A DNA stretch of 64,000 nucleotides from Candidatus Tayloriibacteriota bacterium (GTDB lineage: Bacteria > Patescibacteriota > Minisyncoccia > Phycocordibacterales > PALSA-1337), in contig JBAXUB010000006.1 of the NCBI GenBank assembly GCA_037129895.1, positions 3,580 through 67,579 of the forward strand, in the 5' to 3' direction. The translations under genes were made by a program, and so were the position numbers. Below, piece by piece: positions 2,998 through 62,600 of the stretch. The notes beneath the pieces are model-generated. The model saw only the letters and a program-made list of their open reading frames with translations, was not told where the DNA came from and searched no databases. The number at the start of each line of letters is the position of its first letter. Within the stretch, counting starts at the first letter, position 1.

Positions 2998-4491
2998 ATG
3001 GCATCACTAGAAGAGCTCCGTAAAATCAGATTAGATAAATTGGTTTTATTACAGAAAGCTGGAATAAATCCTTATCCAGCGAAAGTGCCTAGAACTTTTT
3101 GTTTGGCTAATGCCCGCAAGAATTTTGAAGAATATGAAAAGAGCGCAAAACCAGTATCACTGTGTGGTCGTATAATGGCGATCAGGGGACAAGGTGCGAT
3201 CTTATTCGTAGTACTAGATGATGGTAAGTCTACATTTCAGTCAGTTATAAAGAAAGACGTATTGGATGCGGCTTCATTCGATCTATTCTCACAAACAGTA
3301 GATATTGGAGATATCCTGAGTGTGACTGGAACATTTTTCAAGACGAATAGGGGAGAGCAAAGCATCATGGTCAATTCATGGGTGATGGCTGCCAAGTCTT
3401 TGTTACCTTTACCAGAAAAGTGGCATGGATTAACTGATCCTGACGAGAAATTTCGCAAGAGATATCTCGATTTCATCATGGATCCAGAAACTCGCGATAT
3501 TTTCTACAAAAAAGCACGATTTTGGGAAGTTGTACGAGCGATCATGAAAGAGGAAGGTTTCCTAGAAGTGGAAACACCAACATTGGAAACGACGACAGGT
3601 GGTGCAGAAGCGACCCCATTCAAGACTCATCACAATGACTATGATCTAGATGTATATCTACGTATTTCTGTAGGCGAATTGTGGCAGAAGAGACTTATGG
3701 CTGCCGGTTTTCCGAAAACTTTTGAGATTGGTCGTGTATATAGGAATGAAGGATCGAGCCCAGAACATCTTCAGGAATTTACAAACCTCGAGTTTTACTG
3801 GTCATATGCTGATTACAATGATGGTATGGAACTGGTAATGAAAATGTACAGGAGGATTGCAGAGGAAGTTTTCGGTACGACCAAATTTACTTACAAGGAA
3901 CATACATTCGACCTAGCAGATGAGTGGAAAAAGATTGACTATGCTGGAGAGATTTTGAAACAAACAGAGATCGATATAGCAAAAGCTAGTGATGCTGATA
4001 TAAAGAGCAAGTTGGACAGCTTAAAAGTGAAATATGACGGAACTAATAGAGAGAGACTGGTTGATACGTTATGGAAATATTGCAGGAAGAATATCGCTGG
4101 TCCAGCATTCTTAGTGAACCATCCAGTTCTCGTTGCACCACTTGCAAAGTCTGTTGTCGGTTCTGATTCTGCTTCTGCTCCTGCAGAGGTCAGACCTATG
4201 CAGACTGTGCAGATGTTCCAGCCGATCATAGCCGGCTCCGAGATCGGTCGTGGATATTCCGAGCTCAATGACCCTATAGATCAACGCGAGAGATTCGAGG
4301 CTCAGCAGAAACTATTAGAAGGTGGTGATACTGAGGCGATGATGTCTGATTGGGAATTCGTAGAGATGCTAGAACACGGAATGCCACCAACATGTGGATA
4401 TGGTTTCGGAGAACGACTTTTCGCTGTACTTGCAAATAAACCTATGAGGGAAGTGACAATGTTTCCTTTGATGAAAGAAAAGAAGGGCTAG
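2998..4491 (+). CDS. lysS: lysyl-tRNA synthetase, class II
   Basis: OB-fold anticodon-binding N-terminus; motif 2 FEIGRVYRNEG; motif 3 GYGFGERL. Carries an in-frame REP-derived insertion at 4183-4203. Confidence 0.92.
   Translation: MASLEELRKIRLDKLVLLQKAGINPYPAKVPRTFCLANARKNFEEYEKSAKPVSLCGRIMAIRGQGAILFVVLDDGKSTFQSVIKKDVLDAASFDLFSQTVDIGDILSVTGTFFKTNRGEQSIMVNSWVMAAKSLLPLPEKWHGLTDPDEKFRKRYLDFIMDPETRDIFYKKARFWEVVRAIMKEEGFLEVETPTLETTTGGAEATPFKTHHNDYDLDVYLRISVGELWQKRLMAAGFPKTFEIGRVYRNEGSSPEHLQEFTNLEFYWSYADYNDGMELVMKMYRRIAEEVFGTTKFTYKEHTFDLADEWKKIDYAGEILKQTEIDIAKASDADIKSKLDSLKVKYDGTNRERLVDTLWKYCRKNIAGPAFLVNHPVLVAPLAKSVVGSDSASAPAEVRPMQTVQMFQPIIAGSEIGRGYSELNDPIDQRERFEAQQKLLEGGDTEAMMSDWEFVEMLEHGMPPTCGYGFGERLFAVLANKPMREVTMFPLMKEKKG
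4183..4203 (+). repeat. REP-like palindromic element copy embedded in-frame within lysS
   Basis: gcagaggtcagacctatgcag matches 19 of 21 nt of the intergenic REP copy at 26041-26061 (gtagaggtcagacctatgcac), and its flanks resemble copy 4504-4536. It encodes AEVRPMQ. Confidence 0.7.
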
Positions 4492-5133
4492 CTAACCGCA
4501 GATGGCTGTAGAGGTCTGACCTATGCAGTGTGCAGGTTTATGTAGAGGTCTGACCTCTACACCCTTTACATCTGTTAATATCACTGATTGGGGTCTTATA
4601 ACACCATTGAAATCTCTCAGGCTGGAATACTCATAGTTCATGGCGAAATCGACGCGTGCCTCAAGGGTGTTTTTAAGCGGATCAATTAGATCGCACGGAT
4701 TCAAATGAATGTAATTGATCAGAGATTCTATGTACGTTCCATCGTAAACAGGCTTTTCTTTGTATGCGCCCTGCCATATAGTGCCCGAATGCGAATATTT
4801 TTTATTATAATATGACGAATATCCTGTCATCAATTTGTGTATAAATATAGTCATATTATCTCTAGGACGAGACTTACCTGGGGTGCGTTTTTTGAGCGCA
4901 ATATGAATATGATTGGGCATGAGGCAATAAGCAACGATGTCAACTAATATCTTTTTGCGATCGATGGCGAATACATTTTCTGAAAGTCTGGATAAAATGA
5001 ATGGCTCATCATTATTGGCTATGTATAGCAGTTTAACCATTCGAATATAATCTGAGTTATCAAGAAAAATATTTGCTTTATGAGCCCCACGATTGTATAC
5101 GTGGTGGTATATTTCGTCATTTTGTATTTGCAT
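4492..5133 (-). CDS. REP-associated tyrosine transposase (RAYT, IS200/IS605 TnpA-like Y1 HUH transposase)
   Basis: HUH motif LMPNHIHIAL. The N-terminal signature is YHVYNRG...IFLDNSDY. The C-terminal WQGAYKEK...YIHLNPCDL region matches the RAYT catalytic-Tyr region. Start taken at ATG 5131-5133 (MQIQNDEIYHH), since the track start at 5205 is TTG. The last ~24 codons are read through the REP copies, so the true C-terminus is uncertain. Confidence 0.75.
   Translation of the reverse strand: MQIQNDEIYHHVYNRGAHKANIFLDNSDYIRMVKLLYIANNDEPFILSRLSENVFAIDRKKILVDIVAYCLMPNHIHIALKKRTPGKSRPRDNMTIFIHKLMTGYSSYYNKKYSHSGTIWQGAYKEKPVYDGTYIESLINYIHLNPCDLIDPLKNTLEARVDFAMNYEYSSLRDFNGVIRPQSVILTDVKGVEVRPLHKPAHCIGQTSTAICG
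4504..4564. repeat. two adjacent REP copies at the 3' end of the RAYT gene
   Basis: The two copies are ggctGTAGAGGTCTGACCtatgcag and tGTAGAGGTCTGACCTCTACaccc. Each has 9-bp inverted arms around a central T/A. Confidence 0.8.
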
Positions 5134-5211
5134 ATCGCTATCATACTTGATAAGCGATAAAGAAATGATTAAGAAAAGATAAAATTTTGATAAATATTGT
5201 CTCAAATTTCA

Positions 5212-5253
5212 GCTCTGCAGAGTGTAGAGGTCTGACCTCTACACCTCTACATC
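5212..5253. repeat. REP copy at the 5' side of the RAYT gene
   Basis: gctctgcagagtGTAGAGGTCTGACCTCTACacctctacatc. Together with 4504-4564 it brackets the transposase, giving a REPtron arrangement. Confidence 0.8.
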
Positions 5254-5405
5254 TAATATCCCCGAGTTATCCACTGTTTTTATTTGTATCGACTTAGTGA
5301 AGTGGGGTATAATGACCATCAAGTGGGAAGAAGTGGAAAAAGGTTATTTTCTCATAATTTAAATATTTTGAAGAAAAGCCATAAATTCATTTCTCTCGCG
5401 TGCAT

Positions 5406-21731: not shown

Positions 21732-23111
21732 CTATACTTTATCAAAATCACCGAAGTCTGCTTTGTCTACAGACAAGAAAGTCGTTTTCTTGCTATCAAA
21801 GAATAGTTTGACTGTACCAGTTGGACCATTTCTGTGTTTTTCTATCATGATCTCAGCTTCTTCTTTGCGACCTCCAACATCCTGATCTGCTTCACGGTGT
21901 ATGAACATGACCACGTCAGCATCCTGCTCGATCGAACCAGAGTCACGTAGGTCAGAAAGTCTCGGTTTTCCACCTCTCTGTTCGACAGCACGAGATAGCT
22001 GTGAGAGGGCGAGAACTGGCACTTCGAGTTCGCGAGCCAAGTTCTTCAATGATCTTGAAATCTCAGTAACTTGCTGAACGAGGTTGTCATTGTTTTTTGT
22101 ATTTGTCGGTAACATAAGCTGTAGGTAATCCACAACTATGAGTCCCAGGCCCTTTTCGTTCTTGAGGCGTCTAGCGACAGCACGCATCTTCAGGATATTA
22201 TTTCCAGGTTGATCATCTATATAGATAGGCGCGTCAGATAGTCTAGATATTGCATCTCCGATCGCCTTGAAATCATCAGTAACTGATAGATTGTGACCTG
22301 TACGGATCTTCCATGAGTCGACCTGAGACTCGGCTGCGAGCATACGATCAACGAGTTGTTGAGAGCTCATTTCGAGTGAGAATATAGCGACTGGCACCTT
22401 GAAATTAACGGCGGCTTTGCGAGCAATATCTAGTGCGAGTGAGGTCTTTCCCATAGATGGTCTAGCGGCGAGTATGATAAGGTCGGACTTCTGCATTCCT
22501 GAAAGCTTGTTATCTAGATCCACGAAACCTGTATGCACACCGCGTAGTTGGTCCTTCGTATTGTGTAGATGTTCCAACCTTTCCCATGCCTCATGCAATG
22601 TGTCTTTGAGGGCGATAAACTTGTGTGAGCCTGTCTTATTCGTGACTGCATACAGTGCCTTGTCAGCTTTGTCTAGAATGTCGTGTAAATCAGCTTCTTC
22701 ATCATAGCCTAGGTTACTGATGTTTTCTGCAGCTCGTAATAGCTCTCGCATAATGTGCTTTTTGCCAACCATGTCGGCATAATGATTGACGTTGGTCGAA
22801 GTTGGAACACAATTGATAAGTTCGGTCAGGAATGTCATACCGCCGATCTGTTCGAGTTGCTCTTTTTCTTTGAGTCTTGCTGAAACTGATAGGACGTCGA
22901 TCGGGTTGCCCTTCGTATGTAGTTCGAATAGTGTCGCCCATACCATCCTGTGAATATTTGAATAGAAGGATTGCTCATTCACTATATCTGCGACATCATG
23001 CATAGCCTCACCGCGGATCATGATGGATCCGAGCAGTGCCTTTTCGGCTTCGAGACTGTGTGGTGGGACTTTCAGATCTCTTGTCTTGAAGTATGGTGAT
23101 GTCGTGTTCAT
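21732..23111 (-). CDS. dnaB: replicative DNA helicase DnaB
   Basis: N-terminal PPHSLEAEKALLGSIM, Walker A ARPSMGKTSLAL, and RecA-like core motifs. Confidence 0.92.
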   Translation of the reverse strand: MNTTSPYFKTRDLKVPPHSLEAEKALLGSIMIRGEAMHDVADIVNEQSFYSNIHRMVWATLFELHTKGNPIDVLSVSARLKEKEQLEQIGGMTFLTELINCVPTSTNVNHYADMVGKKHIMRELLRAAENISNLGYDEEADLHDILDKADKALYAVTNKTGSHKFIALKDTLHEAWERLEHLHNTKDQLRGVHTGFVDLDNKLSGMQKSDLIILAARPSMGKTSLALDIARKAAVNFKVPVAIFSLEMSSQQLVDRMLAAESQVDSWKIRTGHNLSVTDDFKAIGDAISRLSDAPIYIDDQPGNNILKMRAVARRLKNEKGLGLIVVDYLQLMLPTNTKNNDNLVQQVTEISRSLKNLARELEVPVLALSQLSRAVEQRGGKPRLSDLRDSGSIEQDADVVMFIHREADQDVGGRKEEAEIMIEKHRNGPTGTVKLFFDSKKTTFLSVDKADFGDFDKV

Positions 23112-23228
23112 AATATTCCAGTTGTAAGTGGTCTCATTGTATCATTTATATATAGTTTGCAAACGCCGATTCAAACACGAGATAGTGGAAAACATGTGTA
23201 TATCTAAATTTGTCTCGGATGAAAAACT

Positions 23229-23299
23229 TTATCAAAACTTTATTTTGATTTTATCAGTTCTTTATCGAGATTTTATCTAAACTTTATCAGAAATTTATC
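23229..23299. promoter_or_regulatory. array of six helically phased TTTATC(N) repeats in the dnaB upstream / divergent intergenic region
   Basis: TTATC pentamers start at 23229, 23251, 23262, 23273, 23284 and 23295. The last five are spaced exactly 11 bp apart. Each matches the 5' half of a DnaA box (TTATCCACA) and is embedded in AT-rich DNA. Confidence 0.5.
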
Positions 23300-23344: not shown

Positions 23345-23566
23345 ATGGCTTTAGAAAAACGAGATATAGAAATTGTCGAGAGTATTGTTTATAAAAACGC
23401 TGACGACATAGCTGTTTCCATAGCTAGAAGCTTTGAGAGACTCGAAGAAAGGATCGATTCTGCAGAATCGAGATTGTATTCACGAATGGCTGATATAGAA
23501 GATGCTGTTACTGAAGTGAGAGATTTATTGAAAGAAGAAGAGGGGGAAGATTTAGATTTGGAATAG
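23345..23566 (+). CDS. small acidic coiled-coil protein (hypothetical)
   Basis: 73-aa ORF immediately downstream of the phased repeat array. Highly acidic C-terminus (EEEGEDLDLE). Confidence 0.4.
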   Translation: MALEKRDIEIVESIVYKNADDIAVSIARSFERLEERIDSAESRLYSRMADIEDAVTEVRDLLKEEEGEDLDLE

Positions 23567-26004: not shown

Positions 26005-26065
26005 TGTAGAGGTCAGACCTCTGCATGGCAACATCGGCTGTAGAGGTCAGACCTATGCACGGCTG
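26005..26065. repeat. two REP copies in the corA / ctpA divergent intergenic region
   Basis: tGTAGAGGTCAGACCTCTGCAtgg and ggctGTAGAGGTCAGACCtatgcacggctg. Same palindrome family as at the RAYT gene. Confidence 0.8.
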
Positions 26066-28392: not shown

Positions 28393-28421
28393 TTGACTTA
28401 TTGGCCTAGGGGTGCTATACT
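28393..28421 (+). promoter_or_regulatory. sigma70-like promoter (TTGACT-N17-TATACT)
   Basis: A near-consensus -35/-10 pair with 17-nt spacing, ~60 nt upstream of the ATG at 28483. Confidence 0.55.
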
Positions 28422-28482
28422 ATCCTCACAAAGAGGAACCAAAGTTAGCGCATGCTTACCTAGGTTCTTTTTTATTAAAAAC

Positions 28483-28941
28483 ATGATTGAACTTACAACA
28501 GGAGTAGTGTTCTTGATGTCATCGCTATATGGTAATGGTCAGGGAGACAATTCAAAAGTGATTGTCATGCCAGATCAGAATATTGCAGTGATAACAACTG
28601 CTGACAGCTCTTCAACAACTAGTGTAAAGACTATGGAAGCCTATCTTCGAAAGGAGTTTGCCGACACACCCATATTGGTGGATATTGCTCGTTGCGAGTC
28701 AAATTTTCATCAATTTGATAAAGACGGTAATCTCATTCGAGGACGAGTCAATAATGCAGACGTTGGTGTGATGCAGATCAATGAGTTGTATCACGACAAG
28801 ACTGCAGCCAAACTAGGGCTCGACCTACATACTCTAGAAGGTAACGTAGCTTATGCCAAACATCTTTACAATGAACAAGGTTCTCAACCTTGGGTATCAT
28901 CTTCGAAGTGTTGGTTAGCTAGTCAAGTTGCAAAGAAGTAA
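28483..28941 (+). CDS. lytic transglycosylase-like (SLT/GH23 lysozyme-like) protein
   Basis: ARCESNFHQFD (catalytic Glu-Ser) and the downstream VGVMQIN motif fit the SLT-domain pattern E-S...G(L/V)MQ(I/V). Hydrophobic N-terminus. Start taken at ATG 28483; the track start at 28393 lies inside the promoter. Confidence 0.5.
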   Translation: MIELTTGVVFLMSSLYGNGQGDNSKVIVMPDQNIAVITTADSSSTTSVKTMEAYLRKEFADTPILVDIARCESNFHQFDKDGNLIRGRVNNADVGVMQINELYHDKTAAKLGLDLHTLEGNVAYAKHLYNEQGSQPWVSSSKCWLASQVAKK

Positions 28942-29003: not shown

Positions 29004-29027
29004 TATGCAGAGGTCAGACCTCTACAC
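29004..29027. repeat. REP copy
   Basis: tatGCAGAGGTCAGACCTCTACac. Confidence 0.8.
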
Positions 29028-34620: not shown

Positions 34621-37536
34621 TTACTGACCAACTACTATACTGACCAATCTGTTCGGTACTACTACTATCTTTTGGATCGCCTTACCTGTTAGCCACTTCA
34701 TGACCTCTGGGACCTTCTTGGCTGTTTCCTCTAGTAATTCCTTGCTAGTGTCTTTTGCCGCCATGAATGAACCACGCATCTTTCCGTTTATCTGAACTAT
34801 GATATTCACTTCATTATCCTCTATCAATTTCGGATCAAATTCTGGCCAGCTAGATATATGGATCGATTTCTTGTTGCCTAGGCTCGACCACAATTCATCC
34901 GCAACGTGAGGCATGAATGGAGCGAGGATCTGTAACAATAACTGAAATTGTTCCTTCGATATTGATTCCGCCCTGTCTAATTCGTTGACTGCTATCATGA
35001 GTGAGCTTATCGCGGTATTGAATTTTAAACCATTGATATCGTCTGTCACTTTCTTGATAGTCTTGTGAATGATTTTGATAATATTTATGTCATCAACCGC
35101 GGACGAAAGCACTTTCTCACTCAATCTCCAAACCTTTTCAACAAACCTTCTCGCACCGACCATACTGTCAGTGCTCCAGGCGATCTGTTGGTCAAACGGA
35201 CCCATGAACATCTCATAAACACGGAGAGTATCAGCGCCGAATCTAGCAACAACTTCGTCAGGGTTAACGACATTACCAAAACGTTTTGACATCTTGCGAC
35301 CATCTTCACCCATGATTAGCCCAACGCTTTGCAGTCTAGAAAATGGTTCTATTGTAGAGGTTACACCTATGTCATAGAGGAATTTATGCCAGAATCGTGC
35401 GTAGATAAGGTGACGAGTTGCATGTTCAGCTCCGCCAATATATAGATCAACTGGTGCCCAGTACTTTTCCTTTTTCGAATCAACTAGAGCTTTCTTGTTC
35501 TTTGGGTCCATATAGCGCAGGTAGTACCAAGATGATCCCGCCCATTGAGGCATAGTGTTCGTCTCGCGGCGAGATTTACCTTTGCATTTCGGGCACTTTA
35601 CATTGACCCATTTTCCTATAGCTGCTAGTGGTGACTCACCAGTACCTGTTGGTTCATACGATACTACCTTTGGCAATTTTACCGGCAGGTCTTTCTCTGG
35701 TACAGGAACTACTCCACAGTTCGCGCAGTGAATAAGTGGCATCGGTTCGCCCCAATATCTCTGTCTAGAAAATACCCAGTCGCGAAGCTTGTATTTGATC
35801 GTCTTTGATCCAAACTTTCTGATCATCTCATCTTTGTCTTCAAGCTTGATCTCACGAATAGGCAGATCATATTTTTTAGCAAAATCAGCATCCCTCTCAT
35901 CGTGTGCAGGGACCGCCATGACCGCACCTGTTCCATAGTCAGCCAATACATAGTCAGCTATCCAGACTGGTACAGATTCATTGTTGGCCGGGTTCACAAC
36001 TCGTATGCCTTTCAATTCAACTCCCGTCTTTTCCCTCTTTGCATCAGTTCGTTCCATCTCCGTTTCAAGTTTTGCTTTCTCGATGTATTCGACGACTTCG
36101 TTCCTATTCGAAATTTTCGGCAATAAACTTTTAACATATGGATGTTCAGGAGCAAGTACCATATATGTCACGCCAAATATCGTATCAGGACGCGTTGTGA
36201 ATACCTTGACTGATGGATGTAGTGCGGCCAATATTTCGGGTTCTTCTAATGCACAGAAATGTTCTTCCTTTGCTCGGACTTCGATCAGTCGTGCATCAAG
36301 CTGTGTTGATAGGTGATTCAAATATTTTGCTCTGAACTCTTCTTGTGTGTCAGATAGGACTGCAATATTCCCATTTGCTTGTTTCTTTATCAAATCAAGG
36401 TCAAAGTCCCACTTAAAAGTTTCATGGAACGGTCGAGGCTTAGCTGATTCACCAAAGAAACTGGGATCGCTCGCTGCAGCAACTATCACTAGTCCAGATA
36501 TCGGTTCATTAAGTTTCATCAGTACTTTCATAGCTACTACTGCTCCCAAGCTGTGGCCAATCAAAACAGTATTTTCATCGAAATGACAGTTTTTCAAGAC
36601 GAAGTCTACCTGTTCATCCTCTGTTGGGTTAAAGGCATTTGGCAACTCTGGTGCAGTGACTTTGTGGCCCTTCTTTTCTAGCTCTGATTTGAGCCATGGG
36701 ATGAAGTTACTCTCTGCACTGCCTTCGAAGCCGTGGAGAATGATGTAATTGGCGCTAATATTCTCCGTGGTTGTTGATGCAAATGGAAAATCGATGATAG
36801 CTCCTTCACTCTTCCCTATCCAATTTCTTTGCGATTCCTTTATAGATTCTGGCCAGTCGAGTAAGTTTGTCCCATCAGATTTCTTGGCGTCCAAGTCATT
36901 CAATAGTCTATCTGCATAGTCCGTGATCTTGAGTACCCATTGGCGCAAGGGTCTCTTCTCGACTGGTGTTCCACATCTCTCACACCTACCATCCTCGACA
37001 TCTTCGTTTGCGAGAACTGTCTTGTCTGTTGGACACCAATTGACTGGTTCATTGGACTCGAATGCCAAGCCTTTCTTAAATAATTGCAAGAAAATCCATT
37101 GTGTCCACCTATAGTATGCAGGATCGGTAGTATTGATCTCACGTGTCCAATCATAGTCGAGTCCTATGATCTCTAGCTGTTCCTTGAAACGTTTTACATT
37201 TCTCTGTACTGCTATCAGAGGATTGGTTCGGGTCTTGATGGCATAATTCTCGGCCGGCAATCCGAATGCATCAAAGCCCATCGGGTGTAACACCGAGTGA
37301 CCCTGCATGCGTTTCATTCTGGAAACGACATCAGTTGCGATGTACCCTTTTGGGTGGCCAACATGTAGTCCTTCACCCGATGGATATGGGAACATGTCTA
37401 GAACGTAATATTTGCTTTTCTCGGCGTCTTCTTTCGATCTATAAATCTTGGACTTTGCCCACTTTTTTTGCCATTTCTTTTCTATAATTAAATGGTCATA
37501 TGCTTTTGGGACCTGCTTGTTGGCTTTGGATTTCAT
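34621..37536 (-). CDS. leuS: leucyl-tRNA synthetase carrying an inserted alpha/beta serine-hydrolase-like domain
   Basis: HIGH region MFPYPSGEGLHVGHPKGY, editing-domain TTRPDT, KMSKS region. Between WIGKSEGAIIDF and TTRPDT, where E. coli has ~15 aa, a ~190-aa segment with IILHGFEGS...GHSLGA...EEHF is inserted. Start taken at ATG 37534-37536. Confidence 0.85.
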   Translation of the reverse strand: MKSKANKQVPKAYDHLIIEKKWQKKWAKSKIYRSKEDAEKSKYYVLDMFPYPSGEGLHVGHPKGYIATDVVSRMKRMQGHSVLHPMGFDAFGLPAENYAIKTRTNPLIAVQRNVKRFKEQLEIIGLDYDWTREINTTDPAYYRWTQWIFLQLFKKGLAFESNEPVNWCPTDKTVLANEDVEDGRCERCGTPVEKRPLRQWVLKITDYADRLLNDLDAKKSDGTNLLDWPESIKESQRNWIGKSEGAIIDFPFASTTTENISANYIILHGFEGSAESNFIPWLKSELEKKGHKVTAPELPNAFNPTEDEQVDFVLKNCHFDENTVLIGHSLGAVVAMKVLMKLNEPISGLVIVAAASDPSFFGESAKPRPFHETFKWDFDLDLIKKQANGNIAVLSDTQEEFRAKYLNHLSTQLDARLIEVRAKEEHFCALEEPEILAALHPSVKVFTTRPDTIFGVTYMVLAPEHPYVKSLLPKISNRNEVVEYIEKAKLETEMERTDAKREKTGVELKGIRVVNPANNESVPVWIADYVLADYGTGAVMAVPAHDERDADFAKKYDLPIREIKLEDKDEMIRKFGSKTIKYKLRDWVFSRQRYWGEPMPLIHCANCGVVPVPEKDLPVKLPKVVSYEPTGTGESPLAAIGKWVNVKCPKCKGKSRRETNTMPQWAGSSWYYLRYMDPKNKKALVDSKKEKYWAPVDLYIGGAEHATRHLIYARFWHKFLYDIGVTSTIEPFSRLQSVGLIMGEDGRKMSKRFGNVVNPDEVVARFGADTLRVYEMFMGPFDQQIAWSTDSMVGARRFVEKVWRLSEKVLSSAVDDINIIKIIHKTIKKVTDDINGLKFNTAISSLMIAVNELDRAESISKEQFQLLLQILAPFMPHVADELWSSLGNKKSIHISSWPEFDPKLIEDNEVNIIVQINGKMRGSFMAAKDTSKELLEETAKKVPEVMKWLTGKAIQKIVVVPNRLVSIVVGQ

Positions 37537-37565
37537 AGCTAGAATGATAGCGCAAAATCGGAAAG

Positions 37566-37601
37566 TATACAAAAAGCACCCGACCTATGAAGATCGGGTG
37601 C
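37566..37601 (-). terminator. rho-independent terminator (minus strand)
   Basis: Minus-strand reading: GCACCCGAtcttcataggTCGGGTGCttttt, an 8-bp GC-rich stem followed by T5. Confidence 0.75.
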
Positions 37602-53068: not shown

Positions 53069-53099
53069 TGTAGATGTAGAGGTCTGACCTCTACAGATC
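53069..53099. repeat. REP copy overlapping the stop codon of the cohesin-like gene
   Basis: tgtagatGTAGAGGTCTGACCTCTACagatc. The TGA stop of the 53098-54297 gene lies at its 3' edge. Confidence 0.8.
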
Positions 53100-56674: not shown

Positions 56675-59600
56675 ATTACAGGCGCTGGTTCTTCAGTTGC
56701 GGGTGGTGGAACTGGTGTAGCTGGTGGCTCTACAGCTGGCGGTGCAGTAACAGGCGTTGATTCTGATGGTGTTTCTGCCGGCGATATTACTGGTGGTTCA
56801 GTTGATGCAGTCGATGTGGCTGGTGGTTCAGCCTGAAGTGGCGGTTCTATTATAGGAGTAGTTGTAGCGGATTCGATTGAAATAGGTGTCGAGGTGGCGT
56901 GAGGTACTATTTCTGGTAGTGTAACTTGGACAGTGGAAGAAGCTATAATCTCTGGTGTTGATGTCGCCGTCGTAGACCCTGTAGTTGTCGGTGTTGTAGA
57001 TGAGGTCGGTTCAATAACAGTTTGTGGAATGACCGGACTAACTGAATTTGCTACCATCATCTTCTTCAAGGCTTCCTCGTCTATACATGTTGATCCGAGA
57101 CAAATGGTTTTTGAATTTACCAATTCAACGTCAGCTTGTTTGGCAGTAATCTTGTTCAATATCCAATTACCCGTTGACTCGATAGCCTTCTCAATAGCTG
57201 ATACGAGTTGACTGATGAATGTCGGAGACGTTACGATGGCCGTCACAGTGGAGCTGGCAGTTTTTGAAGCGGATGCAGCGGTGATTTCCTCCATAGTAGA
57301 AGTACTAAATATATCCTTAACAACGTTCATTGCAGACAACTCCTTTACAGAGTTAACCAATGCCGCCAAGATCGGCCGGTCTGACAATGTCAGCATGCCA
57401 GATGAGTCCACACCGACGGCCTCTGGGATACTCGCTTGAACATTTTGTGCGGAGAAGCCAGCATAAGTCGTCAACGTGTCGTATCCCGTCACATCTTTCC
57501 ATTTATATAAGATAGGATTCAATGTCAAAACATCTGAAAGACCTCGATTGAAATTACCCTGAATATTCTTCAACCTCTCATCTGATGAGACTGTGATGTT
57601 ACCTGATGCATCCGAGACGAGGGTACCAGTAGTGAACGTATCATTTCGCATGGTGCCACTGACGTGAAGTTTGGCGGTTGGAGATATCGTGCCTATGCCG
57701 ACGTTGCCAGATACGGATAGATTAGAAGCAAAGTTATATTCATTGATTGTATATTGTGTGCCGGCGTCCGTAATGGTTGCACTGCTAGGCTGAAGAGTTG
57801 TAGCTGGACCCGAAGTCCAAGTACCTGTATGGCGAATTTCAGATGATATACCGCAGATCCAGCTCGTTGCGAACCGAACCCAGACAGAAAATGTTTGATT
57901 CGTTACACCTGATCCGCTTGTATTGACGACTACAACATTGTCCACGAACCTTATTCCACTACTACCATTGTATGTATCTAGACCAACAATCATCGATTCG
58001 ATACCACTTGCAGTGTTACGCCCCTGCACGTTGATATGTTGTCTGGTTGGAATACCCAAACTACTAGCGGCATATAGGTCCACATCCAGTGTGGACCCAA
58101 TCCAAGCCCCGTTGTTGACAAATGTACCGATCTTCATCCAGTGACCACCATCTGTTCCACACTCATTGCTCGTACCAAATACTCCACCGTATATATAGCG
58201 CATGCCAATAGAGTTAAGTGCAGACATTGTCCCTCTGACATCGAGATTGTATCCAGGAAGAGTTGTTCCTATACCAATGGAGCCATTTTCTTTGATGTAT
58301 AAAGCACTATTTTGAGTAGCAGAACCGTTAGTTACGGAGAATGAAAGAGCACCTTTAGGAGCACCATTGGTATGATCAACGAATACACCAGTAATTGCTG
58401 ATGAAATATTACCCCCAGCAGATCTAAATTCATATGCGCCAAAGTTACCGTTTGTTGGATTATCCTGTTGAATATCGAGAGTAACTGCTTTCCATGCCGA
58501 TGATAAAGTCGTGTTGGTTGTCGATCCGGAAAATATAGACGACACTGCACTATCAGCGGCTCCACCAGTCAGTGGAGTATATGCATGGATTCTTACTCCA
58601 GCATACATTGAGTTGTAGATATCCAAGATAGAGATAGGATTCTCCGTCCCAATCCCCACATTTCCGTTATCTAACACTGTGACTTTAGGTGCATTTGTAG
58701 AGTCTGCAATCTGAAATGCTCGACCTGTAGCGATACCTGTACCCGTTACTGAAAGTTTAGCTGACGGAGACGTTGACCCTATCCCGACGTTGCCAGCGTT
58801 TATTACTAAACTAGCTCCCGCCAATGTTGATGCGCTTGAAATGGTACCGCCCAATCCGACGTTTCCACCGCTCTGCAGAACCATCCTCAATGGCTCGCCT
58901 CCGGCAGCTTGACCACCGTAAATCTCAAATTGCCCACCTGTTCCATCGTAGACACTTCGAATTGTACCGAGTGGTAAATAACTTCCCGATGGATAACCAA
59001 AGAAAGAAAAAGAACCCAAAACATCATTAGTTGAAATATTGGTAGGTGAAGCGACTGTTCCTCGAGCACGATAAAAGCCTACTGTCGGTCTGTCACTGGC
59101 AGTTCCATCTGCAAAATTGATTTTTAACCCATCACCGTATCCCAAAGCCGCACCGCTGTTAGATGCAATATTTAGAATAGTTCCGGGATTCTCCGTCCCA
59201 ATCCCCACATTCCCATTTGCAGCTATTGTGAACATTCTAGCGTTCGAGGAGGAGGAAACAGTAAAAGCATTTGCTGATCCTGCCGTTCCATATATATCAA
59301 GTTTGGCGCTCGGAGTTGTGGTGCCGATACCAACGTTACCAGAACTCGTAATTCTCATTTTTTCTGTTAGAGTAGTAGAAGCACTAGCGCCTGTATTAGT
59401 TAAAAAAGTCAATATTCCACTATAACCAGCACCAGAATACAATTGCTCTATTCTAGATGGCTCCCAGTTATCTGACTCCCTCTTAAAACTAAAATAGGAT
59501 CCGAGTCCTGCTGTTGTACCAATCGTAGGTTCTAATCTTAAATTTCCTTTAACATAAAGTTTTTCAGTAGGATTCATTGTACCAATCCCGACGTTGCCAT

Positions 59601-62600
59601 TCGCCAATACCGTAAACACCGAAGAAGTCGCAAATCCCGCCGAAGTTGTTGAAGCGATACTGAATAGTGGCAGAGTTGATCCGGGGGCTTGTTGTATTGA
59701 GAGTCTAGCAAAAGCTGTAGAAGTACCGAGTGAAGCATTACCAGATGCAGAAATATTGAATACATCTCCAGCGACGCCACCGTTGGATGTTACGTTCAAA
59801 TAATTGGCTGTCTGGGACAATATACCATTTAGACTTAGGATTGATCTTGCAGCAAAGCGTGTACCCAACATTAGTTGAGCGTTGAGAGCAAGATCTGTAC
59901 CTATACTAGCTGCGTCATTGACGAACATATCAGTATAATATGTGTCAGAGATTTGGAATTCTGTTTCAAACCAATATCTATAACCAGCATCCAATGTTCC
60001 TGACATACCCATTACTTTATAGTACCTATATGCTGTAGTGTTCTGACTAAGGGTTGTTATTATATACGTACCACCATTCGTACAACTTCCATCGTTTAAT
60101 TGTGTTGTAGTTCCTATGTTCGTCCAATTTGAGTTATCATTACTTCCTTGCCATTGCCATAATCCTTCGGGACATGTAAAACTCCAGTATGTTTTTGCTG
60201 AATCTATTATTTTCTTTGAGCCAAAATCAAAAGTGATAGATTGTGAACCGTCCAATACCACACCTCCAGTTAGAGTGATACCCGTTGAATTTGTACTACC
60301 ATCTACAAGAGTGGGTATTGTGTACTGATGCCATGAACTACCAGTTTCAGACATAGATATGATACTAGTTCTATTTCCAGTACTATATATATTCGTATAT
60401 GTCGTTGTGGCTGTACTGCTTCCGATATGGAGACGAGCTATAGGGGCGTTCTGTTGTATTCCCGTTAACTTAGCAGCCGTCACGACCATTGCGTCACCAA
60501 GACTTGTACTTGCTGTATTGATACTTAGTAGATTAGCCGATTGCCCAATAGCACCCGTTATACTCATCGTCGTCTGTAGTGGAACTAGGGAGTTTAGTGT
60601 AATGGAACCAAACCCAGCATTACCCGTAGCTGATAGACTACCGACGATAGATGTGTTCCCCGTTACTGATAGTGCGTCATTTCCGTTTGATATCTTGAAC
60701 TCGATTTCTTCCCATCTTCGTCCGTTTGCATCAAGTGTTCCAGAGACACTCACAAGTTTATAATAGCGATACCCAATAGAGTTCGTACTGAGAGTTATCA
60801 TAATATACTCACCTGTTCCACCTACCCCTGAAGATAGTTGAGATGTCCCACCAATATTAGTCCATGTTGAATTATCATTTGAACCTTGCCATTGCCAGAT
60901 ACCCTCTGATTCTCCAAAGTTAAATGTATTCTTTGCAGCAGTTACAATTTTTGGTGACCCAAAATCAAATGTTACAAATTGAGAACCGTTTAAAGTCGTT
61001 CCACCTGCAAGTTGAATTGCGTTTGTATTGTTGTTTGCAAGAACTCCATCTATAATACTATTCAATGTGTAGAAGTGCCATGTTCCACCACCCTCTGATG
61101 TACCAACATAGGTTCTTCTATCACCTGTTCCACCGCTATTACTATAGGACGGCGTTTGATTATCTACAGCAATCAATGCAGCTGATGTAGTAGTACCAAC
61201 ACCAGTAAGTCCGCTATCTAGAATAGTAAACTTTGCTGCATAAGTGCTATCTGTAACTTGAAAGGCCTTTCCTGTTGTGATGCCAGAACCTGAGACTGTA
61301 AGCCTAGCTAGGGGACTTGTCGTCCCAATACCGACGTTGCCGCTATCTAGAATAGTAAACTTTGCTACACCATCACTGTCTGTTGTCTGAAAAGTAGCCC
61401 CTGTTGTTGTACCAGAACCATTAACTGACAATTTAGCTGCTGGTGTAGCGTATGGGCCAATTCCGACATTTCCATTAGATTTGAGAATAGAAAAGCGTAA
61501 AGTCCCACTAAGAGAAGTGAAGTCATTTGGAGAAGTGTAATAACGTAAATTACCACCACTTTGAACTCCAAGGGCGGCATGCGCAGCCACTTGATTTTCA
61601 ATAAAAGTAATAAATCCAGAGGTGTTTATCGCTGGCCTAAGTGTCAATGATCCAGTTGCGCCTCCACCAGCACCAAGCCCTGCACCAAGAGCTGCTGTAG
61701 AAAGAGCTCCTCCGACAGTTAGATTGTTCCCTACCACAAAACTGTCAGGCGTTTTTAATCCGATTGCATCAGCATATAAAGCTGCATTTACTACTCCTGA
61801 GTTATAAAAATTTATTCTCGGTACACCACCACTACTAGGTAGAAACTCTATGTAGTCACCAGTTGCATCGTTTATTTGCATTGGTCCAAGAATGCTCAGT
61901 GTTTTTCCAGATATAAAACTATTAGTCCCTATTGCAGTACTTCCAGCCAAATATGTCTGTCCAGAAACTGATAGGTTTGTTGTAGAAGCATTACCTAGTG
62001 AAGATTGACCGGTAACTGATAGCGTTCCTGTGGCTGTAATGTTTGCAGCTGTTAGGTTGCCTGAGAAGTAGCCGTCTCCTACTACGGTGAGCTTGGATGA
62101 TGGGGTTGTGGAGCCGATACCGACGTTGCCGCTCGTATCAACTGTCAGTCGCCTCGTAATAGTTGAAGCCCCATCCCAAGTATAAATACCAAAATTATCT
62201 GTACCATTAGGCATCCCAAAACCCCATTGCGGAGTAGAGGCAGTTACAGCCGTAGCACTTTGTATTAGAAAGGCGGCATCGTGCGTATTATTATTCCTCA
62301 TAACCCTTGCCCAAGAGTTTCCAATAGAGTTCCAACCAATATCCAAAGGTACACCCGGACTCGTCGTCCCAATTCCCACATTCCCTCCATTGTAGTAAAC
62401 ACTGGAACTATTCGTCGTCCACTGACTAGATACTTTGTTGTTCCAGTCTGTGGTAGATGCAGATAGAGGGATGATATAGCTAGGATTGAGTGAGAGTACT
62501 CCAGTAGATGTAGCATACTGTAGACCTGTAGCTGTAGTAGACAGGGCGTTTCTGGAACGTACGTCTGTATAGTAGAGGTTAGTACCTTCTGCTAGAGCTG

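What the first reader, a model, noticed from the sequence alone, without database searches (positions are those of the whole stretch)
4492..5253. REP-RAYT system (REPtron) with dispersed 19-bp palindromic REP copies
A Y1 HUH transposase is bracketed on both sides by copies of the palindrome GTAGAGGTC-T/A-GACCTCTAC. It carries the HUH motif LMPNHIHIAL, YHVYNRG, and a RAYT-type C-terminal WQ..Y...YIH.NP region. Further copies, often as pairs, occur at 4183, 26005/26036, 29004 and 53069, always outside or at the edges of genes except one (see the lysS finding). The final ~24 codons of the RAYT ORF are themselves REP-encoded (…VEVRPLH…GQTST…), which suggests the gene's 3' end has been overwritten by REP insertion. 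REP/RAYT systems are described mainly in proteobacteria. Finding an apparently complete one in this AT-rich, CPR-like genome is notable.
Basis: partly seen in the sequence, partly recalled or inferred. Interest (0 to 1): 0.6.

Follow-up and report, generated by a model that had tools for sequence, protein, structure and literature searches.

The report
REP palindromes with their RAYT transposase
A tiny-genome Candidatus Taylorbacteria bacterium carries a tyrosine "transposase" gene bracketed by a 21-base palindrome that also recurs across the window, which is a known kind of system (REP-RAYT) that I found no published description of in this bacterial group.

Summary
The palindrome TGTAGAGGTCWGACCTCTACA occurs 8 times in the 64 kb window (0.01 expected). 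One copy lies upstream of a 213-aa Y1 HUH gene (4492-5133, minus strand), two lie at its 3' end and one lies inside lysS. The protein has the RAYT/TnpA_REP signature (NHIH, WQ, YIHLNP). It matches only NCBI's REP-tyrosine-transposase model, below that model's cut-off, and its predicted fold is closest to E. coli TnpA_REP (4ER8). No TnpB lies beside it. Its last 27 codons are non-conserved and mostly REP-encoded.

In all 12 other related Patescibacteria lineages examined, the homologous gene has its own genome's repeat on both sides. Two protein clades are involved (about 30% identical). In 10 of those lineages the repeat keeps the central GT-NNN-AC while the outer stems change in a compensatory way. 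The gene keeps its mraZ-lysS position down to 51% identity. REP arrays beside it differ (1 versus 3 copies) between near-identical strains.

Verdict: a genuine REPtron, and a new member of a known kind. It is not an IS200 element, not a set of terminators and not attC sites. Whole-genome copy number and catalytic activity remain untested.

The parts
4492..5133 (-). RAYT-like Y1 HUH gene, 213 aa from the ATG. An upstream in-frame TTG at 5205 is probably not used. NCBI annotates it as 'MAG: transposase [Candidatus Taylorbacteria bacterium]' (MEI6304814.1).
   Evidence: ORF; public gene call and exact protein. Pfam Y1_Tnp 27.6 bits. NCBIfam REP_Tyr_transpos E=1e-9, below its cut-off. AF2 mean pLDDT 87.8. 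Best PDB fold match is 4ER8, E=2e-6.
4576..5133 (-). Conserved catalytic core, residues 1-186. It contains H11/R15/G16, the HUH motif at N74-H75-I-H77, W120-Q121, and Y141 in YIHLNP.
   Evidence: Invariant columns in the alignments of 16 and 64 homologues. hhalign to E. coli RayT aligns the HUH, WQ and Y---NP motifs.
4495..4575 (-). Non-conserved 27-residue C-terminal tail (TDVKGVEVRPLHKPAHCIGQTSTAICG), mostly encoded by the REP doublet.
   Evidence: Orthologue tails differ and are also REP-encoded: P0001 has VEVRP twice, P0242 has it once, P0012 has SGGYTSG and P0060 has RSDL. Low model confidence in the tail: block mean pLDDT 62, 48 and 57 from residue 191.
4507..4527 (.). REP copy, imperfect variant TGTAGAGGTCTGACCTATGCA. 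It is the outer member of the doublet at the RAYT 3' end and starts 16 nt after the lysS stop codon.
4541..4561 (.). REP copy, perfect. It is the inner member of the doublet (34-nt period) and encodes VEVRPL of the RAYT tail.
   Evidence: The doublet folds as one long ssDNA hairpin at -16.1 kcal/mol, z = -4.9.
5223..5243 (.). REP copy, perfect, 90 nt upstream of the RAYT ATG in the divergent RAYT-mraZ intergenic region.
   Evidence: Folds as an ssDNA hairpin at -9.8 kcal/mol, z = -3.6.
5244..5251 (.). Partial duplicate of one REP arm (CCTCTACA) next to the upstream REP. It marks the site where a close relative carries a three-REP array.
   Evidence: Sequence. Alignment of the window with L025 and L040.
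4182..4202 (.). REP copy (TGCAGAGGTCAGACCTATGCA) in frame inside lysS. It is part of an 11-residue insertion (…SAPAEVRPMQT…) in a variable loop.
   Evidence: The LysS alignment shows the insertion in the window, L025 and L040 but not in L026 or L034.
26005..26025 (.). Dispersed REP copy, first of a doublet, between the divergent corA-like and S41 peptidase genes.
26039..26059 (.). Dispersed REP copy, second of the doublet (34-nt period).
   Evidence: The doublet folds at -13.8 kcal/mol, z = -3.4.
29006..29026 (.). Dispersed REP copy, 65 nt after ORF 28393-28941 and just after a separate terminator-like hairpin with a T-run.
53075..53095 (.). Dispersed REP copy, perfect, between convergent ORFs and 3 nt from the end of a cohesin-domain ORF.

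Best explanation
This is a REPtron. A vertically inherited RAYT (TnpA_REP-like, class 2 Y1 HUH endonuclease) is flanked by its cognate REP hairpins, and further REP copies are scattered through the genome at about one per 8 kb in this window.

Shown: the gene, its intact catalytic motifs, its RAYT-like fold, the flanking and dispersed palindromes, the same arrangement in 12 other relative lineages, compensatory change in the palindrome stems across genomes, conserved gene position, and copy-number differences in the REP arrays next to the gene between near-identical strains.

Inferred by analogy with E. coli TnpA_REP and IS608: the protein binds the REP folded as a hairpin on single-stranded DNA. 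It recognises the conserved loop-proximal part (GGTC-W-GACC). It cleaves beside the hairpin through Tyr141, with the HUH histidines holding the metal ion, and rejoins the ends. That activity would create, duplicate, delete or move REPs and REP doublets. Over time REPs have landed at gene ends, adding peptide tails including one on the RAYT itself, and in a tolerant loop of lysS.

The long-conserved position between mraZ and lysS suggests the gene is kept as a resident, domesticated-type gene rather than as a hopping insertion sequence.
For: - Repeat statistics: 8 copies against 0.01 expected. The six most frequent 16-mers in the window are all REP-derived and occur in the RAYT flanks.
- Protein: Pfam Y1_Tnp passes. 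Among transposase models only NF047646 REP_Tyr_transpos matches, in 16 of 16 proteins tested from both clades, and no IS200 model does. The class 2 motifs NHxH, WQ and Y---NP of PMC6006769 are present. The model is confident (pLDDT 87.8) and its best PDB match is 4ER8, E. coli TnpA_REP bound to a REP hairpin, ahead of ISDra2 and IS608 TnpA.
- Generality: L003 and L019 carry Y1 genes only 28-33% identical to this one, yet they are bracketed by the identical palindrome. L025, L026, L029, L031, L034, L035, L036, L037, L038, L039 and L040 each have their own genome's repeat on both sides of the gene.
- Hairpin: across 34 REP variants, 7 of 10 stem pairs show changes on both sides. 55 compensatory cells were observed against 17.8 in shuffles (0 of 500 shuffles reach 55), 87% of cells pair against 31-42% when the partner columns are slid out of register, and G9-C15 and T10-A14 are invariant.
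- Vertical inheritance: the order mraZ-RAYT-lysS is kept at 88%, 64% and 51% protein identity.
- Dynamics: the upstream array has 3 REPs in L040 against 1 in L025, with otherwise near-identical flanks, and the downstream doublet has a period of 24 nt against 34 nt in the window.
- No tnpB: lysS abuts the 3' end and mraZ lies 267 nt from the 5' end.
Against: - The protein scores well below NCBI's cut-off for the RayT equivalog (38.5 against 80 bits) and is about 18% identical to E. coli RayT, so functional equivalence is an extrapolation.
- The GTAG 'tag' is base-paired inside a perfect palindrome, whereas it is described as unpaired in classic REPs. Relatives replace it with CCGG, CTGG or ACCG, so tag recognition may differ.
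- Only 64 kb of the genome was seen, so genome-wide copy number and RAYT count are unknown.
- Array length changes could come from slippage or recombination without any RAYT activity.
- Part of the REP alignment was picked using palindromicity, which inflates the covariation numbers. Symmetric covariation is also what a dimeric double-strand DNA-binding protein would produce.
- No dispersed REP insertion polymorphism was observed.
Confidence: 0.78

Rival explanations
1. Relic system. The gene is a domesticated or decaying RAYT that no longer mobilises anything. The palindromes are fossils, possibly co-opted as RNA or DNA hairpins, and differences in array length arise from replication slippage or recombination between tandem palindromes.
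For: The gene position has been fixed over deep divergence. The four REP positions around the gene are the same in the window, L025 and L040. The array changes occur in 24-nt tandem units, which is typical of slippage. The copy number is low and the palindrome is nearly identical across genomes.
Against: All catalytic residues are invariant or nearly invariant across 64 homologues, which argues for retained enzymatic function. The palindrome differs between genomes yet always matches the copies beside that genome's own Y1 gene, which needs continuing coupling between gene and repeat. New in-gene insertions are lineage-specific, for example in lysS.
Confidence: 0.13
2. The palindromes are double-stranded operator sites for a dimeric regulator, or generic transcription terminators or attenuators, and their closeness to the Y1 gene is incidental.
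For: A perfect 21-bp palindrome is a typical operator shape. Several copies lie in divergent promoter regions (5223; 26005/26039). One relative copy is embedded in an A-run/T-run terminator-like context (L003 2370-2402). Symmetric covariation fits dimer binding as well as a hairpin.
Against: All 13 Y1 gene lineages examined, from two protein clades and from genomes of 39-59% G+C, have the repeat on both sides. Copies also lie downstream of genes, inside lysS and in coding 3' ends. They have no T-tail and the terminator scan does not call them. The copy at 29006 follows a separate terminator-like hairpin. Tandem copy number varies between strains.
Confidence: 0.05
3. It is an ordinary IS200/IS605 insertion sequence whose subterminal hairpins happen to resemble other palindromes.
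For: There is a Pfam Y1_Tnp hit. ISDra2 TnpA is a weak profile hit of similar strength to 4ER8 in sequence space.
Against: The Tyr motif is Y---NP rather than Y---Q, and the HUH motif is NHIH rather than DH[VI]H. No IS200 model matches. No tnpB is adjacent and there is one copy in the window. The gene sits at the same chromosomal site in species down to 51% identity. The two flanks carry the same palindrome rather than distinct left and right ends.
Confidence: 0.02

Closest known systems
E. coli RayT / TnpA_REP with REP-BIME sequences (PDB 4ER8; subclass 2.2 of PMC6006769)
   Same: It is a Y1 HUH protein with WQ and Y---NP motifs, and it is the best structural match. The gene is flanked by REPs that are also dispersed. 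REPs occur as doublets. The gene has low copy number and is chromosomally fixed.
   Different: Identity is about 18%, and the score is below the NCBIfam equivalog cut-off. The protein is about 190 aa plus a REP-derived tail, against 165 aa. The REP is a perfect 21-nt palindrome with GTAG paired on both arms, not an imperfect hairpin with an unpaired 5' GTAG. Density is far lower: 8 copies in 64 kb here.
Subclass 2.4 TnpA_REP (Bertels group 4; Cyanobacteria, Bacteroidetes and various phyla) as described in PMC6006769
   Same: Motif pattern NH[IFV]H / WQ / YIxxNP. Median length about 194 aa. REP sequences are inserted within the tnpA_REP gene itself, seen here as REP-encoded C-terminal tails and, in P0065, as N-terminal and internal REP insertions.
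   Different: The Tyr motif here is YIHLNP, not YIxNNP. Membership could not be tested because no reference sequences were available. The REPs of subclass 2.4 are described as 'long / double foot', whereas these are short perfect palindromes.
Pseudomonas fluorescens REPIN-RAYT system (PMC3116915, PMC5581495)
   Same: The RAYT is single or few-copy and vertically inherited. The most abundant 16-mers in the genome sit in its flanks. Inverted REP doublets are predicted to fold into long hairpins.
   Different: Pseudomonas has hundreds of REPINs per genome and its REPs are species-specific. Here the identical 19-mer recurs in genomes of 33-60% G+C and next to Y1 proteins only about 30% identical.
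IS200/IS605 TnpA (IS608, ISDra2)
   Same: Same fold and the same HUH/Tyr chemistry. Both recognise DNA hairpins on single strands.
   Different: Those proteins have Y---Q and DH[VI]H motifs. They often come with tnpB, occur as many identical copies and have distinct left and right ends. None of these features is seen here.

Membership tests
RAYT / TnpA_REP (class 2 of the TnpA_Y1 superfamily, PMC6006769) | Y1 HUH fold with an HUH motif and one catalytic tyrosine | tested here: met
   CLMPNHIHIAL and Y141 are present. Pfam Y1_Tnp scores 27.6 bits against a cut-off of 23. AF2 mean pLDDT is 87.8, and Foldseek hits 4ER8, ISDra2 and IS608 TnpA with probability 1.00.
RAYT / TnpA_REP (class 2 of the TnpA_Y1 superfamily, PMC6006769) | Tyr motif Y---NP (class 1 IS200 has Y---Q) and HUH of NHxH type | tested here: met
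   YIHLNP and NHIH. N145 and P146 are invariant and Y141 nearly invariant in 64 homologues. The motif definitions were read. Clade B (L003, L019) deviates: YILVKNP and YVMVKNV.
RAYT / TnpA_REP (class 2 of the TnpA_Y1 superfamily, PMC6006769) | Gene flanked by REP hairpins whose copies are dispersed in the genome (REPtron) | tested here: met
   REPs lie at 4507, 4541 and 5223 beside the gene, and at 4182, 26005, 26039, 29006 and 53075 elsewhere. REP-derived 16-mers are the six most frequent 16-mers in the window and sit in the RAYT flanks. This was tested only within 64 kb.
RAYT / TnpA_REP (class 2 of the TnpA_Y1 superfamily, PMC6006769) | Low copy number, no tnpB partner, mainly vertical transmission | tested here: met
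   There is one copy in the window. The neighbours are lysS and mraZ. Synteny is kept at 88%, 64% and 51% identity. The whole-genome copy number was not testable. One relative has two paralogues that are 64% identical.
RAYT / TnpA_REP (class 2 of the TnpA_Y1 superfamily, PMC6006769) | Binds and cleaves or rejoins single-stranded REP DNA | not testable with these tools
   This needs purified protein and REP oligonucleotides.
NCBIfam NF047646 REP_Tyr_transpos (equivalog of E. coli-type RayT) | Whole-protein score at or above the curated cut-off of 80 bits | tested here: not met
   38.3-38.5 bits, E about 1e-9, covering model positions 40-131 of 146. It is the only transposase model that matches, but this protein is not an equivalog.
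GTAG-tagged REP superfamily (PMC3733652) | Short (20-40 bp) palindromic repeat, mostly extragenic, in multiple copies | tested here: met
   It is a 21-nt palindrome with 8 copies. 4 of the 8 are intergenic, 1 lies inside lysS and the other 3 flank the RAYT gene or overlap its 3' end. ssDNA hairpins fold at -7.8 to -9.8 kcal/mol with z about -3.5.
GTAG-tagged REP superfamily (PMC3733652) | Unpaired GTAG (or GTGG) tetranucleotide at one end of the hairpin | tested here: inconclusive
   GTAG is present but on both arms, paired with CTAC. L026 has GTGG. L029, L035 and L036 have CCGG, CTGG/GGTG and ACCG instead.
REPIN (inverted REP doublet forming a long hairpin) | Two REPs in inverted orientation separated by a short spacer | tested here: inconclusive
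   The window has doublets at 4507/4541 and 26005/26039 (34-nt period), and each folds as one long hairpin. Because each REP is itself a palindrome, orientation is defined only by the imperfect arm. Clear inverted doublets occur in L026, L035, L036 and L037.
IS200/IS605 insertion sequence | TnpA with Y---Q and DH[VI]H, often with tnpB, several near-identical copies, distinct left and right end hairpins | tested here: not met
   The motifs differ. No IS200 HMM matches. No tnpB is adjacent, there is a single copy in the window, and the locus is fixed across species.

The most novel reading that the evidence does not exclude
Paceibacteria-type CPR bacteria carry two old, vertically inherited RAYT clades lodged at housekeeping loci: mraZ-lysS for clade A and grpE-dnaK for clade B. 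Their REP hairpins keep one loop-proximal core (GGTC-W-GACC or AGTC-W-GACT) across genera, across 33-60% G+C, and across proteins only about 30% identical. This contrasts with the species-specific REPs of Proteobacteria. If so, the REP-RAYT pair in these minimal genomes would be a long-lived host-integrated system with a cellular role, for example hairpin-based control of transcripts or of single-stranded DNA during replication. That would make CPR a clean natural test of the 'domesticated transposase' hypothesis.
Probability: 0.3. Interest if true: 0.65.

Novelty: new member of a known kind. Interest (0 to 1): 0.45.

Why it matters
REP-RAYT systems are thought to be more common in larger genomes (PMC6006769). 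Why hosts keep RAYTs is an open question (PMC5581495).

Here a complete REPtron sits in a streamlined Candidatus Taylorbacteria genome. The gene has stayed at the same site down to 51% protein identity, its catalytic residues are intact, and REPs are written into protein-coding ends and into lysS. If the wider pattern holds, these small genomes give a simple setting for asking what RAYTs do for a cell. That pattern is two CPR clades, a hairpin core shared across genera, and array changes between near-identical strains. The natural pairs of proteins and altered hairpin tags would also allow specificity-swap experiments.

For annotation, these genes should be called RAYT-like rather than 'transposase'. 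The short peptide tails and insertions they generate should be recognised as REP-derived.

Tried and rejected
- A possible ninth copy at 35353-35373 (TGTAGAGGTTACACCTATG, 6 mismatches) was rejected. About one such match is expected by chance, and it lies in conserved LeuRS sequence with no apparent insertion.
- A single-sequence search of PDB found nothing relevant. A profile search gave only marginal hits: ISDra2 at E=0.015 and 4ER8 at E=0.034. Structure prediction was needed to separate them.
- Foldseek against AFDB50 was unavailable, so the closest annotated non-CPR relatives could not be listed.
- Rfam found only a tRNA in the window, so there is no known RNA family at the REPs.
- None of the loci fetched by the palindrome scans overlaps the window at the DNA level. 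The source genome is not in the species-representative collection, so no whole-genome REP count was possible.
- ORFs next to palindromes in L010 and L017 were checked as possible RAYTs. They are an RNase-H-like protein and an M50 peptidase.
- Terminator and promoter scans around the gene gave nothing above chance.
- Literature searches combining RAYT, REPIN or REP with CPR, Patescibacteria, Parcubacteria or Taylorbacteria found no paper describing such a system. The only related mention is a KEGG K07491 hit in an archaeal genome.
Full report
**1. What is in the sequence**

The pattern GTAGAGGTCWGACCTCTAC, with up to three mismatches, matches eight sites in the window: 4183, 4508, 4542, 5224, 26006, 26040, 29007 and 53076. 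Dinucleotide-preserving shuffles give 0.01 matches on average. The full unit is the 21-nt palindrome TGTAGAGGTCWGACCTCTACA. Relaxing to five mismatches adds nothing. At six mismatches one further site appears, at 35353. It lies in a conserved stretch of leucyl-tRNA synthetase with no apparent insertion, and about one such match is expected by chance, so I reject it.

Three copies share an imperfect arm (…CCTATGCA). As single-stranded DNA the single copies fold into 9-13-bp hairpins with a 3-nt loop, at -7.8 to -9.8 kcal/mol and z about -3.5. The two doublets (34-nt period) fold into longer hairpins, at -16.1 and -13.8 kcal/mol. REP-derived 16-mers are the six most frequent 16-mers in the window, and they occur in the flanks of the Y1 gene. 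This is the operational criterion Bertels et al. used for RAYTs (PMC5581495).

**2. The gene**

The ORF at 4492-5133 (minus strand) encodes 213 aa from the ATG. The same start is used in public gene calls, where NCBI names the product 'MAG: transposase [Candidatus Taylorbacteria bacterium]' on a 67.8-kb contig. It contains YHHVYNRG, CLMPNHIHIAL, IWQGAY and NYIHLNP.

- Pfam Y1_Tnp passes its threshold, at 27.6 against 23 bits.
- In NCBIfam the only transposase model that matches is REP_Tyr_transpos (E=1e-9), but at 38 bits it is far below the 80-bit equivalog cut-off.
- All 16 tested proteins from both clades behave the same way, and none matches an IS200 model.
- Quentin et al. (PMC6006769, read) define class 2 (TnpA_REP) by Y---NP and NHxH, and class 1 (IS200) by Y---Q and DH[VI]H. 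This protein has the class 2 signature.
- hhalign against E. coli RayT aligns the HUH, WQ and Y---NP motifs.
- An AlphaFold model built from 64 homologues is confident (mean pLDDT 87.8, pTM 0.83).
- Its best PDB match is 4ER8, E. coli TnpA_REP bound to a REP hairpin (E=2e-6, 184 aligned columns). ISDra2, IS200 and IS608 TnpA follow at E=3e-5 to 1e-3.
- lysS abuts the 3' end with no gap, and mraZ starts 267 nt from the 5' end, so there is no tnpB next to the gene.

**3. The REP-encoded tail**

Homologues align up to …RPQSVIL (residue 186). Beyond that the tails are unrelated in sequence and length.

- In the window the 27-residue tail overlies the REP doublet at 4507-4561 (…GVEVRPLH…IGQTSTA…). 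Model confidence is low there: block mean pLDDT is 62, 48 and 57 from residue 191 on.
- The closest relatives end in one (P0242, …DVEVRPLHSA) or two (P0001) REP-encoded VEVRP units.
- P0012 ends in SGGYTSG, which is encoded by its own REP. P0060 ends in RSDL. P0065 has REP-encoded segments at its N-terminus and in an internal loop.

Quentin et al. describe REP insertions within tnpA_REP as a hallmark of their subclass 2.4, whose motifs (NH[IFV]H, WQ, YIxNNP, about 194 aa) are the nearest published match. I could not test membership of that subclass.

**4. Evidence from other genomes**

The protein has thousands of homologues: 6788 clusters at E<=1e-3. The best hits are about 190-210 aa proteins labelled Patescibacteria or Paceibacterota, and some are already called 'REP element-mobilizing transposase RayT' by JGI.

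Scans for the exact palindrome found 6 loci in species-representative genomes. By their record titles five are CPR MAGs (Taylorbacteria, 'Saccharibacteria') and one is an unclassified uncultured bin. A further 16 loci came from metagenomes. For a pattern of this length about four chance matches are expected in 596 Gb, so isolated hits must be read with care. However, many extend the palindrome to 25-29 nt.

Two of these loci (L003, L019) contain a Y1 gene bracketed on both sides by the identical palindrome, although those proteins are only 28-33% identical to the window's. They belong to a second CPR clade ('B', about 235 aa). On a neighbour-joining tree clade B is sister to the window's clade 'A', with E. 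coli RayT as outgroup.

I fetched contigs for further members of both clades. In every case the gene has that genome's own repeat within about 150 nt on both sides, usually with more copies elsewhere in the 20-kb locus:

| Locus | Repeat flanking the Y1 gene |
|---|---|
| L025, L040 | same REP as the window |
| L026 | GTGG-AGGTCAGACCT… |
| L029 | TCCGGAGGTTACACCTCCGGA (7 copies in 20 kb) |
| L035 | GGTG-AGGTCGGACCT-CCAG, in inverted doublets |
| L036 | ACCG-AGGTTCCACCT-CGGT (12 copies, inverted doublets) |
| L031, L034 | CTAC-T-AGGTGTCTCCT-T-GTAG |
| L037 | TGTAGAAGTCWGACTTCTACA |
| L038 | TGTGCAAGTCTGACTTGCACA |
| L039 | TGGCAAGGTCWGACCTTGCCA |

Across 34 variants from the palindromic types, the central G-T…A-C is invariant. 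Seven of ten stem pairs show changes on both sides. There are 55 compensatory cells against 17.8 in shuffles (0 of 500 shuffles reach that value), and 87% of cells pair against 31-42% in slid registers.

Two caveats apply. Some sequences were chosen for being palindromic. Symmetric covariation is also what a dimeric duplex-binding protein would produce.

**5. Inheritance and dynamics**

The order mraZ-RAYT-lysS is kept in relatives whose protein is 88% (L025), 64% (L026) and 51% (L034) identical. The L034 genome has a second paralogue elsewhere, 64% identical to the first, so 'one RAYT per genome' is not a rule here. Clade B genes sit between grpE and dnaK in two genomes.

L040 and L025 are near-identical in the sequence around the gene. 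Between them the upstream REP array has three units (24-nt period) against one. The window has one unit plus a partial arm (5244-5251). The downstream doublet has a 24-nt period in both relatives and 34 nt in the window.

The lysS copy is part of an 11-residue in-frame insertion. It is present in the window, L025 and L040, and absent from L026 and L034.

**6. Interpretation**

The anatomy is that of a REPtron. By analogy with E. coli TnpA_REP and IS608, I infer that the protein binds the REP hairpin on single-stranded DNA and cleaves and rejoins beside it through Tyr141 and the HUH metal site. The conserved GGTC-W-GACC centre would be the recognised element, and the variable outer four pairs would act as a lineage-specific 'tag'. 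Nothing about catalysis was tested.

The fixed chromosomal position and the invariant catalytic residues fit the 'domesticated RAYT' picture of Bertels et al. The array differences show recent REP turnover but do not prove that the protein causes it.

Rivals:
- A relic system whose arrays change only by slippage is plausible (0.13).
- Operators or terminators unrelated to the gene are unlikely, given the both-sides association in all 13 lineages, the copies in coding sequence, the absence of T-tails, and the copy at 29006 lying after a separate terminator-like hairpin.
- An ordinary IS200/IS605 element is excluded by the motifs, the HMM results, the absence of tnpB and the conserved synteny.

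**7. Comparison with what is known, and novelty**

GTAG-REPs and RAYTs are documented in at least eight phyla and in about a quarter of sequenced species. REPs inside genes and providing stop codons are also known (PMC3733652, PMC6006769, PMC5581495). The claim 'mainly proteobacterial' is therefore too narrow, and the kind of system is known.

I found no paper in the held library that links REP, RAYT or REPIN with CPR or Patescibacteria.

Features that differ from the textbook case:
- The palindrome is perfect, with GTAG paired on both arms.
- The hairpin core, and even the identical 19-mer, is shared across genomes of 33-60% G+C and across two protein clades about 30% identical.
- Density is low.
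- The host genome is small, whereas RAYT-bearing genomes are reported to be larger than average.

I rate this a new member of a known kind, of moderate interest.

Noticed in passing
window 23228-23299 and 5155-5201: An array of TTATC motifs phased at 11 bp, with seven copies, lies between dnaB (21732-23111, minus strand) and a small ORF (23345-23566). A 47-nt stretch 79% similar to it lies just upstream of the RAYT start codon, and the array there is conserved in L025 and L040. It may be a shared operator or promoter element, but its function is unknown.
   Followed up: partly
window about 5266-5274; L026 9850-9870: A DnaA-box-like TTATCCACT sits in the RAYT-mraZ intergenic region, and the orthologous spacer in L026 has TGTGGATAA and TGTGGATAG. 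GTGGG repeats near a TATAAT at about 5310-5345 look like MraZ operator repeats.
   Followed up: no
window 2998-4491 (lysS), REP at 4182-4202: Lysyl-tRNA synthetase carries an in-frame 11-residue insertion that contains a REP (…SAPAEVRPMQT…) in a variable loop after the APLAK motif. The insertion is shared by L025 and L040 but absent from L026 and L034.
   Followed up: partly
window 34621-37572 (-): The leucyl-tRNA synthetase ORF (983 aa) has Pfam alpha/beta-hydrolase matches at residues about 277-399, apparently an inserted hydrolase-like domain upstream of the editing domain.
   Followed up: no
L038 10001-10723; L039 10001-10711: The clade B Y1 gene sits on the same strand between grpE and dnaK in two different genomes (proteins 56% identical), each flanked by its own palindrome.
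   Followed up: partly
L036 10001-10636 versus L037 10001-10699: A clade A gene (P0065) and a clade B gene (P0134), 33% identical, occupy similar positions next to type IV pilin and T2SSF genes in two contigs. NCBI labels both proteins Candidatus Taylorbacteria.
   Followed up: no
L036 10712-10790: A pentanucleotide tandem repeat of about 15 units of AGACT lies immediately downstream of the RAYT gene and its REP doublet.
   Followed up: no
L003 3393-4148 (-): A 251-aa ORF convergent with the Y1 gene, not annotated here, ends in REP-encoded residues (…GVEVRPLL). This is another case of a REP supplying the C-terminus and stop region of a neighbouring gene.
   Followed up: no
window 57600-64000: Several families of diverged direct repeats of 30-150 nt (for example GGATTCTCCGTCCCAATCCCCACATT…) lie within what looks like a large repetitive coding region.
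   Followed up: no
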